Source of the DNA: Candidatus Atabeyarchaeum deiterrae
GTDB lineage: Archaea; Asgardarchaeota; Atabeyarchaeia; Atabeyarchaeales; Atabeyarchaeaceae
NCBI GenBank assembly: GCA_037310415.1
Contig: CP147780.1
Location: forward strand, 2,176,001-2,240,000
Length of the DNA stretch: 64,000 bases
Direction of reading: 5' to 3'
This document shows, in pieces, positions 17,334-51,390 of this stretch (position 1 is the first letter of the stretch; every line of letters starts with the position of its first letter). The translations under genes and the position numbers were made by a program. Under the pieces are notes generated by a model, which was not told the origin of the DNA, ran no database searches, and was given only the letters and a program-made list of their open reading frames with translations.

Positions 17334-17945
17334 GTGAGAGTGCAGCCCAACAGACTCGTGAAATGCACCGACTTCCCATGCTTAGACGTAAGTAAGGAAG
17401 GCTATTTGGTGCCAGACGTGGAGATAGATCCCGAGAAAATTCATGTCATAATGATCTCGGAAGCCCCTCCTAAGGAAAAAAGCGACTACTTCTATGCGCA
17501 GAACAATCCTTTCTATTTGCAGACGACCGTTCAAGCCTTCCAAGATGCAGGCACAAAGGTATCTTCTATGAAAGATGTGCTGCACTTGGGAGTATATGTG
17601 ACCACAGCCATAAAATGCGCAAAAACCGCATACGCGATTTCTCCCAAGACGATTGAGAATTGCTCACGCATAGTGCTAGAGAACGAAATGAGACTGTTTC
17701 CAAAAGCTAGGACAGTCATGCTGATGGGAGACACTGCAATAAAAGCAATGAATTTCGTAGCCAAGAGAAACACTGGCAAGGCGATAATCCCAAGCGGTTC
17801 TACATACAAAATCAGAAAAGGCGAGTACCACTTCAAGCAGCTTAAGGTCATTCCTTCGTACCTGCAGACGGGAAAGAGCTATCTGATTGAAAAGTCCAAG
17901 AGAAAGATGATAGCAGAAGACATCAAGAGAGCGCTAGAATTGTAG
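17334..17945 (+). CDS. Uracil-DNA glycosylase superfamily protein
   Basis: IMISEAPP, TTAIKC, ENC, MLMG motifs of the UDG fold. Confidence 0.7.
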   Translation: MRVQPNRLVKCTDFPCLDVSKEGYLVPDVEIDPEKIHVIMISEAPPKEKSDYFYAQNNPFYLQTTVQAFQDAGTKVSSMKDVLHLGVYVTTAIKCAKTAYAISPKTIENCSRIVLENEMRLFPKARTVMLMGDTAIKAMNFVAKRNTGKAIIPSGSTYKIRKGEYHFKQLKVIPSYLQTGKSYLIEKSKRKMIAEDIKRALEL

Positions 17946-17986
17946 GAAATCATTCTCTCGTTGAATACGGACTGTCACGACAGGAA

Positions 17987-44567: not shown

Positions 44568-46225
44568 TCACAGAAATCTTATTGCTTCTTCGAGTCTTTT
44601 CTTGAGCGTATCGTTCACTGTCTTTCCGTCGGCCTTTCCTCGTAATTGTTTCATCACGTCTCCCATTAGGGGGCTTAATGCTTGCATTTTCTTCTCCCTA
44701 ATTAGATCCATGTTCTTCTTGATCGTTTCCTCGACGATTTTGGCAAGTTCACCTGTAGAGACTTCTTTTATTCCGAGTATGCCGATTGCCTCGTCCACAG
44801 TCGCTGTCTGATCCTTCGCAAGGTACACCAGTATATCGGGTATTGCTTCCTTCGCAACTTTCTCTTCGTTAAGTTCCTTGAAAACTCGTTCCACTTTCTC
44901 GTCTCCTATGTTTTCCACAGTAATACCTTCCCTTTTCAAGTACTTCAACGTGTTCTGAAGCGTTGTGGCAACGAGTGCCGGCGAAACATTCCTCATCTTT
45001 TCCACAATACTCTCGAATAAATCCAAGTGATACGATCTGATCATTGCTTCAGCAAGTTCTTTACTGAGTTTGTATTGTTTGACGAATCGTTCGAACTTCT
45101 CCTCTGGTTTTTCGGGGAGAGCTTCCTTTATCCTGGTGATCCTTTCTGAGGTTATGGGAACGATCGAAGTGTCCGTCTCAGGATACATCCTTGCAGATCC
45201 TGGTTTTGGTCTGCTGTACTGCGTTGACCCGTCAGGCTTTGCCCCTCTTGTCTCTTCTGGGACACCACTAATCGCTTCCCTTGCTCGCTCAACTGCCGCA
45301 TCTAGGGCGTCTTTGGCTTTCTTAGGTTGATCGGCGACAAGTAGGATACAGTCATCTTTACCGGCTGCCAGTCGTTCTTTTACCTTCTTGACTTCTTCCT
45401 CTGTTATTCCATATGCTGGCAATTCATCAGTGTGGAAAATCCCTCCGACACCGCCCCAGAAAATTGCTCTCTCAGACATCTCTGTGCCGAGACGTCTTCC
45501 AGGTTGAACCTCTCTTCCGACGAGTCCAGCGAACTTCGGAAGCACTGTTGCTAGCACAACTCCATGTTGATCCAATGCTTTCCTCATGACTTTGCTCTTG
45601 GATTCTTTGAACAACTCTGACAGATCAGCAGATTTTCCTTTGACGTCATCCTTCTTGACGTTTCTGTTCTTAAGCTCATCTCTGATCCTGACTAGGCTAA
45701 GCTGTCTCTGAACCTCGAGTTCAACGACGCGTGCCAGAAGTCCAAGTTCCTGAACACCTTTGACTTCTATTAACGCTCCGTCCTTAGTTGACACGTTTAC
45801 GTCTTGTCTTATTGTTCCAAGTCCACGCTTCACTTTTCCAGTTGCTCGGAGGAGTTGACCGATCTTGTATGCCGCGCTTTCAGCTTCTTCTGGACTGTTT
45901 AGGTCGGGAGCCGTGGCTATTTCCACGAGAGGGATGCCTTGTCTGTCCAATCTGTATACGACTTCGTTCTGTGTCTCGCTCATCTTCCTAGCTGCATCTT
46001 CTTCGAGAGAGATGGTCTGAATCCGGACGCTTTTTCCATTTTCCAGCTCAATTTGACCACCCAAAGAAATCAAGGCCGTTCGCTGGAAGCCTGTGGTGTT
46101 TGAACCGTCGATGACAATCTTCCTCATGACATGAATCTCGTCGATGGGGCAGCTGTTCAAAAGCAAAGCCATTTCAATTGCTGTATCTAGGGCTTCCTGG
46201 TTCAATGGGTGAGGAGGCTCATCGT
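44568..46225 (-). CDS. gatE: Glu-tRNA(Gln) amidotransferase subunit E, exon 2 (joins exon 1 at 46267..46522; spliced product 637 aa)
   Basis: DEPPHPLN, MRKIVIDGSNTTGFQRT, LEEDAARK, YRLDRQGIPLVEIAT, KRGLGTIRQDVNVS, GIFHTDELP, ARMYPETD; lacks the GatE N-terminus, which is in the adjacent upstream ORF. Confidence 0.95.
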
Positions 46226-46266
46226 CTAGGCCAGCAACTCTCAACCATCTTAGAAGGAGATGCTGT
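46226..46266 (-). other. 41-nt bulge-helix-bulge (BHB) intron in the gatE mRNA
   Basis: Central helix AGGC/GCCU, two 3-nt AGA bulges, intron stem CAGCA/UGCUG, exon stem GUUG/CGAU; removal restores the frame and CLVEAD-DEPPH. Confidence 0.88.
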
Positions 46267-46522
46267 CTGCCTCAACTAAACAGGTTCCCTCACCATACAT
46301 CTCATACATGAAAGTCTTCCCTTTGTGGAACTCGAAGAGAGCAGCTTGGTCGACCTGACCCAATTCACTCTGTGTTGGGCGAAGTCTTCGTTTGAACCTA
46401 ATACTGGGTTCATCTTCATGAATAACGATAGGGCAGCTGCAGAAAAGCTTGCCCTTGGTGTTGAGTTGCTGATGTAGTTCAAGCCCAACAACGGTTCCAG
46501 CTTTCGGATGATCAATATCCAT
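46267..46522 (-). CDS. gatE: Glu-tRNA(Gln) amidotransferase subunit E, exon 1
   Basis: VGLELHQQL..KLFCSCP, RRLRPTQSELGQVDQAALFE, CLVEA; ATG at 46522 (GTG at 46537 is an alternative). Confidence 0.93.
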
Positions 46523-46590
46523 ATGGATCCACCCCACACTTAAGTGTGCACATTGATTGGCTTAGTGATTCTTCTTACCAGTATTTCTCC

Positions 46591-48006
46591 TTACTCTTCT
46601 CTTTCGGCGGTTTCAGGAACCGACTCATCCGCGTGGGAGACTGCCGTGATCTCTCCGACGATGTTCGTTCTGATTAACTGGATTGTCTTCTCATGACTTT
46701 GTTCACTGCCAAGTAGCCACATTAATTTGACGAGTGCAGTTTCGGGCAACATGTCTTCCCCTGGTGTCACGCCCATGGCGAGTAGTTCGCGTCCTGTTCT
46801 ATAGACGCTCATATTAATGCGTCCCGAGATGCATTGACTGGTCATAACGACGATAATGTCGTCTTCAACCGCTCGCTTTATGGACCGGTATGTTCCTTCT
46901 GGAACGTGTCCAAGACCAGTTCCTTCCAACACGATGCCATGGTAACTCTTGTCGACCAACGCATCAATCAGTTCGCCCGCACTCCCAGGATACGTCTTGA
47001 CGAGACCAACCTTATCGTCGAATTTTGCCTGAACGTGGAGTTCCCTCTTTGCATCGCGCCTGGTATACTCGTCAACTAGCATTTTCACGTTGCCATCCTG
47101 AACTCGCGCTGTTGGTTTCGCGTTGATTGATCTGAAGGCATCTCGCCTGCTAGTGTGCATCTTCCTTACCTTCGTCCCCCTATGGCAAAGACTGTAGTTG
47201 TCTCCCATCTCCCCGTGCATGCACACGACGACCTCAGCAAAAGGGCCGCTTCCTGCAGAAACAACTGCGTTGATGAGGTTCATTGCAGCATCAGAAGATG
47301 GGCGGTCCGACGATCTTTGCGATCCCACAAGTACCACGGGGACTGGAAGTCCTTGAAGTGCAAAACTGAGAGCCGCAGCCGTGTAGTGCATCGTATCAGT
47401 CCCGTGAGCAACGACAACCCCGTCCAATCCGCCCTCTATAATGCGTTTGCCAATCGAGTCTGCGATCATAGACCATTTGTCAGATGTCATATTCTCACTG
47501 AGAATATTGCAGAGGATCTCTGCCCTAACGTTCGCAGTGTCCCCAAGCTCTGGAACCACATCGTACAGGTCTTGAGCTGAAAGTGCTGGGCTGACTGCTC
47601 CAGTTTTGTAGTCAACCTTGCTAGCGATGGTGCCTCCAGTGCTTAGGAAACTTACCGTGGGCAGACCTTTGACAACACGTCTCGGGGCTGCTATTGTGGC
47701 ACCTTGTTGCGTCCCCGCTTCTACGCTTCCCTTCTTCAAGATTGATATGATGATGTCCTGTTTCACGTCAATCCCGATATTGTAACCGCTTTTCTGTTTG
47801 ACAACAATGTGAAAATCATCGGTTGACACGACTGGTCGAGGCATCACAACGCCCTCGAAGACCGAGCCACTCTTTGTGCTGATCTTGACAAGATCGCCGA
47901 CGCTGGCACCTGCTGCCTTCAAAGCCTTTAAGGCTTCTCCGCGATAACCAAAATCAGAAGCTCCGCCACTGCCCTTCTCGGTGGAAGGATTTGCCTGCCG
48001 TTTCAA
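46591..48006 (-). CDS. gatD: Glu-tRNA(Gln) amidotransferase subunit D
   Basis: SGYNIG, STGGTIASKVDY.TG.V, HGTDTM, GSQRSSDRPSSD, RKMHTSRRDAF, GTGLGH, DMLPETA.VKLMW. Confidence 0.96.
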   Translation of the reverse strand: MKRQANPSTEKGSGGASDFGYRGEALKALKAAGASVGDLVKISTKSGSVFEGVVMPRPVVSTDDFHIVVKQKSGYNIGIDVKQDIIISILKKGSVEAGTQQGATIAAPRRVVKGLPTVSFLSTGGTIASKVDYKTGAVSPALSAQDLYDVVPELGDTANVRAEILCNILSENMTSDKWSMIADSIGKRIIEGGLDGVVVAHGTDTMHYTAAALSFALQGLPVPVVLVGSQRSSDRPSSDAAMNLINAVVSAGSGPFAEVVVCMHGEMGDNYSLCHRGTKVRKMHTSRRDAFRSINAKPTARVQDGNVKMLVDEYTRRDAKRELHVQAKFDDKVGLVKTYPGSAGELIDALVDKSYHGIVLEGTGLGHVPEGTYRSIKRAVEDDIIVVMTSQCISGRINMSVYRTGRELLAMGVTPGEDMLPETALVKLMWLLGSEQSHEKTIQLIRTNIVGEITAVSHADESVPETAEREE

Positions 48007-50202: not shown

Positions 50203-50667
50203 TTTACTTTTCTCCTCTTGATAACGTTGTTAACAACTATTATGCTTTAAAGTTCTTAAATGTTGGGGCTATGAAAAACAATTTCCTCAACTGACAGCAA
50301 TCAATATGCTCTCATTCAGTTGCAGGAGGTGTCCCCTAACAAACACAAACCGCAATAGCGTTACAGGAAGCTCACACTGGAAGTGAGGTGATTTCCTGTA
50401 CGGAATGCTTCAAACGATGTGGTTCCAGGAACGAAACCCTATCCGACGCACCAGCATCGGGGAGATTACATATGCTGGCTTCGCAATGATATGTGGGAAT
50501 CGGACTTTGAGAAAAGGGATCTCTGTGATTCGCATTCAGAAGGCATCTAAAGAAAATGAGTTCTTGCGAGTCCCGCAATCTTTTGTCAAAGTCTTAGAAA
50601 CGTTTAAGCTCTGGAACAGCGATCAGTACGAATTAGCGGAACGGTTCGGTGGGAGGCCCCTCAATAA

Positions 50668-51390
50668 GTGCGCGCTGAAAACCTAGCCTTTGCGATCGTC
50701 TACATGTTGCATGAGGCTTCGTGCAACAGGCAGTTCATTCCAGTCGCCGATTTCAAGGACGTGCTCGGCGAATCGGAGGTCTCCACGCTGATAAAGATGT
50801 TACGTAGCGTCCACATAATCATCACTGAGAAGGAGTTTTCCGACGTCGTTGCACGCGCCAAAGCCGCATTGCACCTAACAGAAAACGGAATCGGTGCATA
50901 TGCTGACGATTTTCCTTCCAGCGACGGTGACGACATCATTGCTCTGAACCCTGCGCTGGTAGACGAGATGAAGAGAAACTATCCTGGACAACTCGGCTAT
51001 CAAATGGTAAGACGATTCGTGAGTGGCTTCCTAGGCTCACTAGAACTTGCTGCAAACGTTGGTTCACTAGACGACTTGGTCAAAGAGTTGTCCACGAAGT
51101 ACCAAGATAAATTCAAAATTGCTGTTGCCAAGGACATGGTAGTCGCCCGTGCATGTAACCTGTCGGAAGTGGAGAGGGCCTCGCTCGCAGCAGCAAAGTT
51201 GGCGTCTCCCCCCAGATTTCACAGTATTGTCTCAATCCTTTTGAGTAGAGCCCAGAAGTACGCCGAACAGATCTCAGTAGAAATCGCTCGGGAAGATATA
51301 GAAGACTACTTGTTCAACGGTCCCAAAGGAGGGGCTACTAATAAAAGCCCGACTACACCGAGTTATCTAGAGAGATCTGGGACCTTGTGA
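50668..51390 (+). CDS. Hypothetical protein
   Basis: 240-aa ORF; GGGAGG RBS and AAACG-TTTAAG TATA-like element near 50597-50608. Confidence 0.6.
   Translation: MRAENLAFAIVYMLHEASCNRQFIPVADFKDVLGESEVSTLIKMLRSVHIIITEKEFSDVVARAKAALHLTENGIGAYADDFPSSDGDDIIALNPALVDEMKRNYPGQLGYQMVRRFVSGFLGSLELAANVGSLDDLVKELSTKYQDKFKIAVAKDMVVARACNLSEVERASLAAAKLASPPRFHSIVSILLSRAQKYAEQISVEIAREDIEDYLFNGPKGGATNKSPTTPSYLERSGTL

What the first reader, a model, noticed from the sequence alone, without database searches (positions are those of the whole stretch)
46221..46277. Canonical bulge-helix-bulge intron inside the gatE protein-coding gene
Seen in sequence: gatE is split into an N-terminal ORF ending ..CLVEADSISF* and a second ORF in another frame starting ..GLDDEPPHPLN. 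The mRNA-sense junction reads GUUG-AGGC-AGA-CAGCA-UCUC-cuucuaagaugguu-GAGA-gu-UGCUG-GCCU-AGA-CGAU. This folds into an exon stem GUUG/CGAU, a 4-bp Watson-Crick central helix AGGC/GCCU, a 3-nt AGA bulge on each strand, and an intron stem CAGCA/UGCUG extended by UCUC/GAGA. Established: this is the strict BHB substrate of the archaeal tRNA splicing endonuclease (EndA), which cuts after the second nucleotide of each bulge; RtcB ligates. Cutting there removes exactly 46226-46266 (41 nt, not a multiple of 3, with an in-frame UAA). The join is GAG GCA G|AC GAU GAG CCU CCU CAC = E-A-D-D-E-P-P-H, the conserved GatE motif, and gives a 637-aa protein. The BHB mRNA intron I know as established is in crenarchaeal cbf5; I know of none in gatE. 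GatDE is the archaeal route to Gln-tRNA(Gln), so pseudogenisation is unlikely. Inference: Gln-tRNA synthesis here depends on mRNA splicing by the tRNA machinery, and other 'frameshifted' genes in this genome may hide such introns.
Basis: partly seen in the sequence, partly recalled or inferred. Interest (0 to 1): 0.96.

Follow-up and report, generated by a model that had tools for sequence, protein, structure and literature searches.

The report
tRNA-type intron splitting Asgard gatE
The only gene for the enzyme subunit GatE, needed to charge glutamine tRNA in this Asgard archaeon, is interrupted by a 41-base intron shaped like a tRNA intron. Relatives keep that shape through matching mutations, so the mRNA is almost certainly cut and rejoined by the tRNA-splicing enzymes, which papers report for only one other archaeal coding gene.

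Summary
gatE (minus strand) is broken at 46226-46266 by a 41-nt insert. The insert forms a 4-bp helix AGGC/GCCU, two AGA bulges and an intron stem.

- **Exact repair.** Cutting after the second bulge base joins GatE profile positions 2-87 and 86-628 without a gap and restores the invariant ExDExPP motif.
- **The DNA is real.** Contigs from three independent metagenome studies span the site without gaps.
- **Organism.** The genome length (2,756,679 bp) matches a published complete Atabeyarchaeia (Asgard) genome, in which 92-95% of tRNA genes carry introns.
- **Chance.** A BHB shape alone is common in this genome. The weight lies in the exact repair and in conservation.
- **Conservation.** Eleven relatives carry a 25-41 nt intron at the same site, with 7 of 16 pairs showing compensatory changes. 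Freyarchaeia and a hot-spring family carry a different 29-35 nt BHB intron 5 nt downstream, with 7 of 12 pairs compensatory.
- **Dependence.** The genome has one gatE, no GlnRS, no GatB match, an alpha/beta EndA pair and RtcB.
- **Not a one-off.** glyA and a radical SAM gene in the same genome are split the same way.
- **Missing.** No RNA evidence could be obtained.

Earlier notes of this scan report similar mRNA introns in other Asgard genomes. The papers I searched report only cbf5.

The parts
46267..46537 (-). gatE exon 1 (GTG 46537, or ATG 46522, to the G of the split Asp codon)
   Evidence: The ORF list and NF003107 profile positions 2-87.
46226..46266 (-). 41-nt BHB intron. It is phase 1 (G|AC) and carries an in-frame UAA at 46252-46250.
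   Evidence: Relatives carry a same-site intron of 25-41 nt.
44568..46225 (-). gatE exon 2, stop codon included
   Evidence: NF003107 positions 86-628, 747.8 bits. The junction aligns without gaps to intact homologues.
46269..46272 (-). Central helix H, 5' strand AGGC (exonic)
   Evidence: Pair probabilities are 0.82-0.99. RNAalifold predicts it. The pair G-C changes to A-U in two relatives.
46228..46231 (-). Central helix H, 3' strand GCCU (intronic)
46266..46268 (-). 5' bulge AGA. The predicted cut lies between 46267 and 46266.
   Evidence: It is unpaired in the MFE fold and in the RNAalifold consensus. It is invariant in 11 sequences.
46225..46227 (-). 3' bulge AGA. The predicted cut lies between 46226 and 46225.
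   Evidence: Relatives have AGA, AAA or ACA here. The position follows from the exact repair of the reading frame.
46257..46265 (-). Intron stem h', 5' strand CAGCA plus UCUC
   Evidence: Pair probability is about 0.75. Five of 8 pairs show compensatory changes in relatives.
46232..46242 (-). Intron stem h', 3' strand GAGA-gu-UGCUG
46243..46256 (-). Intron loop of 14 nt. It varies freely among relatives. A strain variant at 46250 turns UAA into UAG.
46273..46276 (-). Outer exon helix h, 5' strand GUUG
   Evidence: Three of the 4 pairs are kept in all 10-11 relatives. Single-sequence and consensus folding do not favour it.
46221..46224 (-). Outer exon helix h, 3' strand CGAU
46591..48006 (-). 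gatD, the partner subunit. It is intact and lies directly upstream on the same strand.
   Evidence: NF003217, 556.9 bits, profile positions 3-417 of 420.

Best explanation
gatE of this Atabeyarchaeia (Asgard) genome carries a 41-nt bulge-helix-bulge intron inside the codon for the first Asp of the invariant E-x-D-E/D-x-P-P motif.

The proposed mechanism has four steps.
1. gatD and gatE are transcribed.
2. The heteromeric (alpha-beta)2 splicing endonuclease EndA recognises the 4-bp helix flanked by two 3-nt bulges. It cuts after the second base of each bulge.
3. RtcB joins the exons and probably circularises the intron.
4. Only the spliced mRNA encodes full-length GatE. Unspliced mRNA ends at UAA after 95 codons.

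Shown here: the structure, the exact repair, its conservation with covariation, the presence of the enzymes, and the lack of another route to Gln-tRNA(Gln).

Inferred: the cleavage and ligation themselves, the circular intron, and any regulatory use.
For: - **Exact repair.** Profile positions 2-87 and 86-628 abut. The spliced product aligns without gaps to 11 intact homologues across CLVE-x-D-E-E-PPH.
- **Real DNA.** Logan contigs of three independent studies bridge 46226-46266 with no gap. One carries a loop substitution, UAA to UAG. The published genome was hand-curated and checked with long reads (PMC11291895).
- **Same-site conservation.** Eleven distinct sequences carry introns of 25, 27, 35 and 41 nt. 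90.7% of cells are paired, 7 of 16 pairs show changes on both sides, 0 of 500 shuffles reach this, and slid controls give 18-48% paired. RNAalifold on its own predicts H, the 5' bulge and h'.
- **A second intron nearby.** A BHB intron 5 nt downstream occurs in all 11 genomes examined of two other families. 97.5% of cells are paired, 7 of 12 pairs are compensatory, 0 of 500 shuffles reach this.
- **Machinery.** The catalytic EndA alpha subunit (Tyr/His/Lys present), the beta subunit and RtcB are all present. Asgard EndA is the broad-specificity (alpha-beta)2 type with the L1 loop (PMC5829648).
- **Essentiality.** There is a single gatE, no GlnRS over cut-off and no GatB-like match in this genome.
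- **Fixation.** No full-length GatE more than 69% identical to exon 1 exists among 5.8 billion proteins, so the interrupted form is fixed in the lineage.
- **Same solution elsewhere in the genome.** glyA has a 41-nt intron (profile 3-50 and 52-403). A radical SAM gene has a 53-nt intron (profile 4-83 and 86-329) that splits its CxxxCxxC motif.
Against: - The single-sequence fold is not exceptional (z = -1.05).
- The canonical outer helix has probability of 0.03 or less. The full canonical BHB scores -12.7 kcal/mol against an MFE of -20.8 kcal/mol, because another outer register competes.
- BHB-like shapes are as common in this genome as in a mirror control, so shape alone proves nothing.
- In archaea translation can start on nascent mRNA, so how ribosomes are kept off unspliced mRNA is unexplained.
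Confidence: 0.85

Rival explanations
1. Split gene without splicing. The two ORFs are translated separately, and a 91-aa N-terminal piece and a roughly 550-aa C-terminal piece assemble into an active GatE.
For: Gene callers and NCBI annotate two genes. One example is 'hypothetical protein WED04_10665' for exon 1 of Atabeyarchaeia-1. In this window a TTG lies in frame 21 nt upstream of exon 2.
Against: Thirteen of 19 intron-bearing sequences have no ATG, GTG or TTG in frame between the last stop and exon 2. This model gives no reason to conserve a 4-bp helix, two 3-nt bulges and a stem through compensatory changes while the loop and the length vary freely. The break also sits inside an invariant motif.
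Confidence: 0.05
2. Translational bypass (ribosome hopping, as in phage T4 gene 60). The ribosome takes off at GAC and lands on the second GAC 41 nt downstream. That would give the same protein.
For: In this window AGAC is repeated at both borders, so take-off and landing codons match. A hairpin and a nearby stop lie in between.
Against: The matching codons are not conserved. G002 and six other same-site sequences have AAC or CAC at the landing site, and the downstream-site introns have no matching pair at all. The stop is 5 codons after the take-off codon, not adjacent to it. The conserved features are those of a BHB.
Confidence: 0.03
3. Decaying pseudogene, or a frameshift caused by a random insertion.
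For: The frame is broken, and annotation pipelines do not call a full-length gene.
Against: Both exons stay open and score as GatE in every lineage. The C piece alone scores 747.8 bits against a cut-off of 456. There is no second gatE, no GlnRS and no GatB-type match. The insert persists across sequences only 64-88% identical in exon 1, with its structure kept.
Confidence: 0.03
4. Assembly or sequencing artefact.
For: The genome comes from a metagenome.
Against: Independent contigs from three studies hold the 41 nt. The genome was curated by hand and validated with Nanopore and PacBio reads (PMC11291895). Eleven related contigs from JGI, ENA, Logan and NCBI hold the same-site insert.
Confidence: 0.01

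Closest known systems
cbf5 pre-mRNA BHB intron of Crenarchaeota (Watanabe 2002; Yoshinari 2006; Yokobori 2009, PMC2738675)
   Same: A short BHB intron inside a protein-coding sequence. The organism has a hetero-oligomeric EndA. The intron has been gained and lost among relatives. It is the only coding-sequence case named in the papers I read (PMC7714728).
   Different: The gene differs (gatE, tRNA-dependent amidotransferase) and so does the phylum (Asgard: Atabeyarchaeia; also Freyarchaeia at a neighbouring site). Here at least three genes of one genome are affected. Splicing of cbf5 was shown by RT-PCR and in vitro cleavage, whereas here it is inferred.
BHB intron in the 5' UTR of HVO_1309 mRNA, Haloferax volcanii (PMC7714728)
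   Same: An mRNA substrate of the archaeal splicing endonuclease.
   Different: It lies in an untranslated leader, so it does not interrupt a reading frame. The Haloferax volcanii enzyme was shown to cut that site in vitro.
Archaeal pre-tRNA BHB introns, including the 228 tRNA introns reported in the three complete Atabeyarchaeia and Freyarchaeia genomes (PMC11291895)
   Same: The same motif geometry (a 4-bp helix between two 3-nt bulges, cut after the second bulge base), the same size range and the same enzymes.
   Different: The host RNA is a messenger. The exon strand of the helix and the bulges must also encode conserved amino acids.
Spliceosome-independent mRNA splicing in eukaryotes: HAC1/XBP1 by IRE1 plus tRNA ligase/RtcB, and 'SOS splicing' of transposons from animal mRNAs (PMC13149111; PMC12779559, abstract only)
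   Same: A protein endonuclease recognises an RNA structure in an mRNA. A tRNA-type ligase (RtcB in animals) is involved.
   Different: The endonucleases and the motifs are different. The resemblance is in how it works, not in membership.

Membership tests
Archaeal bulge-helix-bulge (BHB) intron, a substrate of EndA | Two 3-nt bulges on opposite strands separated by a 4-bp helix | tested here: met
   AGGC/GCCU with an AGA bulge on each strand. RNAalifold predicts H and the 5' bulge in both intron groups.
Archaeal bulge-helix-bulge (BHB) intron, a substrate of EndA | Flanking helices h (exon side) and h' (intron side) for the strict hBHBh' form | tested here: inconclusive
   h' is met, with 5+4 bp and compensatory changes. 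For h, 3 bp are kept in all relatives, but folding gives a probability of 0.03 or less and RNAalifold does not predict it. The downstream-site introns have no clear h, so they are the relaxed form.
Archaeal bulge-helix-bulge (BHB) intron, a substrate of EndA | Cutting after the second base of each bulge gives a functional, precisely joined product | tested here: met
   The profile halves 2-87 and 86-628 abut. The junction aligns without gaps to intact GatE. The same holds for 19 relatives.
Archaeal bulge-helix-bulge (BHB) intron, a substrate of EndA | Structure kept by covariation while loop and length vary | tested here: met
   Alignment A3: 7 of 16 pairs with changes on both sides, 0 of 500 shuffles. 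Alignment A1: 7 of 12 pairs, 0 of 500 shuffles. Lengths range from 25 to 41 nt and from 29 to 35 nt.
Archaeal bulge-helix-bulge (BHB) intron, a substrate of EndA | Splicing endonuclease and RtcB ligase encoded in the genome | tested here: met
   Two EndA paralogues are present: alpha with Tyr/His/Lys, and beta. One RtcB scores 582 bits.
Archaeal bulge-helix-bulge (BHB) intron, a substrate of EndA | Cleavage and exon ligation observed in RNA | not testable with these tools
   No RNA holder was listed, and the one run labelled metatranscriptomic laid nothing.
GatE (Glu-tRNA(Gln) amidotransferase subunit E, NF003107 / TIGR00134) | Full-length match over the curated cut-off, with gatD adjacent | tested here: met
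   The C piece scores 747.8 bits (cut-off 456) and the N piece 114.2 bits over positions 2-87. gatD is adjacent at 556.9 bits.

The most novel reading that the evidence does not exclude
In Atabeyarchaeia and Freyarchaeia, tRNA-type introns are a spreading class that repeatedly colonises protein-coding genes. This genome has at least gatE, glyA and a radical SAM gene. In gatE there were two apparently independent insertions 5 nt apart in the same invariant motif. EndA plus RtcB would then work as a general, obligatory mRNA-splicing system for core genes in close archaeal relatives of eukaryotes. That would tie the supply of Gln-tRNA to the capacity of the tRNA-splicing machinery.
Probability: 0.45. 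Interest if true: 0.85.

Novelty: new member of a known kind. Interest (0 to 1): 0.72.

Why it matters
Splicing of coding mRNA by the tRNA-splicing enzymes is documented in archaea for one gene only, cbf5 in Crenarchaeota.

Here an essential translation gene needs it. This is the only gene for the GatE subunit of GatDE, the apparent sole route to Gln-tRNA(Gln) in the genome. The organism is an Asgard archaeon, and at least two further core genes in the same genome are split in the same way.

- **Annotation.** These genes are currently filed as 'hypothetical protein' plus a truncated gene. This can distort metabolic reconstructions and gene-content comparisons of Asgard genomes.
- **A testable system.** The finding points to a protein-only mRNA-splicing system in the lineage from which eukaryotes arose.
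- **How introns settle.** Two different introns sit 5 nt apart in one invariant motif. This offers a natural experiment on how such introns insert and persist.

Tried and rejected
- **RNA evidence.** No RNA holder was listed for the gatDE stretch. The one run labelled metatranscriptomic (X14) laid nothing.
- **Search for spliced or intron-less forms among 5.8 billion proteins.** Exon 1 of this window finds no long GatE above 69% identity. Exon 1 of the downstream-site lineage finds none above 76%. So there is no RNA-derived junction and no intron-less close allele on record.
- **Genome-wide BHB scan.** Loose hits number about 12,000 per strand and strict hits about 200. BHB plus ORF-merging candidates number 35 real against 39 mirror (at least 80 open codons on each side of the junction and an insert of at most 70 nt). 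None of these counts differs from the mirror-image control. The scan therefore cannot list introns. Two in-window candidates it gave (17905-17960 and 50658-50722) showed no family continuity.
- **Naming the organism through the search for related loci.** The window's own records were left out. Identity came from the exact genome length in PMC11291895 and from a cluster name.
- **Weak gatE matches in G085, G086, G092, G303 and G313.** These are divergent sequences or contig ends, not introns.
- **Thermodynamics.** The single-sequence fold is not significant (z = -1.05), so it was not used as support.
- **One ancestral intron shared by Atabeyarchaeia and Freyarchaeia.** This is disfavoured. On a quick GatE tree the two intron groups lie in different major clades, each beside intron-less sequences. 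That tree is unfinished and uses SH-aLRT support only. A species tree could still allow one gain followed by a 5-nt shift.
- **Ribosome hopping, separate translation, pseudogene and artefact.** These are treated under rivals.

Full report
**What is there.** On the minus strand, an ORF at 46250..46537 ends ...CLVEADSISF*. A second ORF at 44568..46244, in another frame, reads ...GLDDEPPHPLN. The NCBIfam GatE model NF003107 matches positions 2-87 in the first ORF and 86-628 in the second. Nothing is missing: 41 extra bases sit between two abutting halves. Removing 46226-46266 gives E-A-D-D-E-P-P-H. The protein is 642 aa from GTG 46537, or 637 aa from the ATG five codons downstream at 46522. gatD lies intact directly upstream.

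**Which organism.** The window is part of a single-contig genome of 2,756,679 bp. That exact length is given for one of two complete Atabeyarchaeia genomes from wetland soil in PMC11291895. Exon 1 of the sister genome G001 is on record as a hypothetical protein of 'SRVP18_Atabeyarchaeia-1' on a 2,808,651-bp contig. This window is therefore the other published genome. The paper reports hand curation, long-read validation, and introns in 92-95% of tRNA genes. It mentions no introns in protein genes. The Asgard part of that label holds, but the class label does not.

**The DNA is real.** Logan contigs from three different studies (freshwater sediment, wetland, soil) run across 46226-46266 without gaps. 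One differs at 46250, which turns the intron's UAA into UAG in the loop. A contig of a distant relative in one run has 140 letters where this genome has 181. That is exactly 41 fewer.

**Chance.** A BHB shape alone means little here. My scan found about 12,000 loose and about 200 strict BHB shapes per strand, and as many in a mirror-image control. The single-sequence fold is unremarkable (z = -1.05). The central helix (0.82-0.99) and the intron stem (about 0.75) are well predicted. The outer exon helix is not (0.03 or less). The significance lies in a strict BHB at the one place where its cuts restore a profile-continuous protein (about 6x10^-7 per position and length). It also lies in what relatives show.

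**Relatives, same site.** G001 and G002 (same family) and eight metagenome contigs carry an intron after the same G of the Asp codon. The contigs were found through short exon-1 ORFs. Intron lengths are 25, 27, 35 (five sequences) and 41 nt (four sequences). The loops are unrelated. The 5' bulge is always AGA, and the 3' bulge is AGA, AAA or ACA. The central helix is AGGC/GCCU or, in two sequences, AAGC/GCUU. On the 11-sequence alignment, 90.7% of cells pair and 7 of 16 pairs show changes on both sides. No shuffle of 500 reaches this, and sliding the partner drops pairing to 18-48%. RNAalifold alone predicts the 4-bp helix, the 3-nt 5' bulge and the intron stem. Every spliced product restores E-A-D-E/D-E-P-P.

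**Relatives, neighbouring site.** All five genomes of family f7 (hot-spring MAGs) and all six of f18 carry a different BHB intron of 29-35 nt. Family f18 includes CP147778.1, whose 3,576,204 bp matches the published Freyarchaeia genome. The central helix is GAYG/CRYY, with one A-C mismatch in G008. Both bulges are AAA. The cut falls 5 nt further downstream, and the product is E-x-D-E|T-P-P. Several of these introns are in frame but contain a stop. Pairing is 97.5%, 7 of 12 pairs are compensatory, and 0 of 500 shuffles reach this. RNAalifold agrees.

Apart from those three families, none of the gatE matches I could inspect among 400 genomes of the phylum showed an interruption at this motif. 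Only the best matches of that scan were listed. On a quick GatE tree the two intron groups lie in different major clades, each next to intron-less sequences. This favours two independent insertions in one invariant motif. The tree is provisional.

**Machinery and dependence.** The genome encodes an EndA with the catalytic Tyr, His and Lys. It also encodes a second EndA-like protein without the His. These match the C-terminal and N-terminal halves of fused endonuclease models, which is the alpha/beta arrangement. One RtcB is present. Asgard EndA is reported as the broad-specificity (alpha-beta)2 type with the L1 loop (PMC5829648). There is one gatE, no GlnRS above cut-off and no GatB-type match. 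By these searches GatDE is the only route to Gln-tRNA(Gln).

**Not a one-off.** Following two first-reader notes of this scan, I checked two further genes of the same genome.
- glyA is split by a 41-nt insert with CUGG/CCAG and AGA/AAA bulges. Its halves match SHMT profile positions 3-50 and 52-403. The join reads ...EGWPGERVYAGTKY.
- A radical SAM gene is split by a 53-nt insert. Its halves match positions 4-83 and 86-329. The join restores CNLTCPWC.

**Rivals.**
- **Separate translation of two pieces.** This is unlikely. Thirteen of 19 sequences have no start codon in frame before exon 2, and nothing in that model would conserve a BHB.
- **Ribosome hopping.** It could give the same protein in this window, because AGAC is repeated at both borders. 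The matching codons are absent in most relatives and at the neighbouring site.
- **Pseudogene.** This is contradicted by intact, high-scoring exons in all lineages and by the lack of any substitute pathway.
- **Artefact.** This is excluded by the independent contigs.

**What is missing.** There is no RNA evidence. No RNA run holds the stretch. No spliced or intron-less close form exists among 5.8 billion predicted proteins. That second result also shows that the interrupted form is fixed in these lineages.

**Known or new.** The kind is known: the cbf5 pre-mRNA intron of Crenarchaeota, and a BHB intron in a Haloferax 5' UTR. A 2020 paper states that cbf5 is the only other case (PMC7714728). 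I found no paper on a gatE intron or on coding-sequence BHB introns in Asgard archaea. Earlier notes of this scan report similar introns in other Asgard genomes. I did not test those.

**Verdict.** This is a real, conserved BHB intron in an essential gene. It is a new member of a known kind and part of a multi-gene pattern. Splicing itself is still to be shown.

Noticed in passing
own genome G000:C1:652709-652749 (+); locus L142 1210-1250: glyA (serine hydroxymethyltransferase) is split by a 41-nt BHB insert (CUGG-AGA ... CCAG-AAA, phase 1). Its halves match SHMT profile positions 3-50 and 52-403. The join restores ...NRYAEGWPGERVYAGTKY.
   Followed up: yes
own genome G000:C1:919007-919059 (-); locus L143 1408-1460: An AmmeMemoRadiSam-type radical SAM gene is split by a 53-nt BHB-like insert. 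Its halves match TIGR04337 positions 4-83 and 86-329. The join restores the CxxxCxxC cluster motif (CNLTCPWC).
   Followed up: partly
window 46250: A soil-metagenome strain (run X7) has T>C on the plus strand. This changes the intron's in-frame UAA to UAG in the loop. The intron length is unchanged.
   Followed up: partly
window 46144-46326 (run X6, record 11): A contig of a distant relative matches both flanks but has 140 letters where this genome has 181. That is exactly 41 fewer, as expected for an intron-less gatE in the same habitat.
   Followed up: no
L042 (G385) GatE residue 272; L044 (G117) GatE residue 512: Two other Asgard gatE genes each have a single in-frame stop (TAA and TAG) with no extra length relative to homologues. 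They could be sequencing errors, recent nonsense mutations or recoding.
   Followed up: no
GatE tree, loci L007-L049: Atabeyarchaeia GatE groups with the intron-less families f12, f6 and f5 and with a Bathyarchaeia sequence. Freyarchaeia GatE groups with family f2 (which from its 1.3-1.4 Mb genomes I take to be Odinarchaeia) and other Asgard families. The published species tree makes Atabeyarchaeia and Freyarchaeia sisters. This suggests possible gatE transfer or an old paralogy.
   Followed up: partly
own genome, whole: ARAGORN finds only 24 tRNA genes in 2.76 Mb and calls an intron in 20 of them. This is consistent with the heavily interrupted tRNA genes reported for this genome, and it implies that many are missed.
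   Followed up: no
L140/L141 (NCBI MAGs of family f7); protein P0126: Public annotations call exon 1 of gatE a separate small gene (95-111 aa, 'hypothetical protein') and omit or truncate the rest. The intron is unrecognised in the records.
   Followed up: partly
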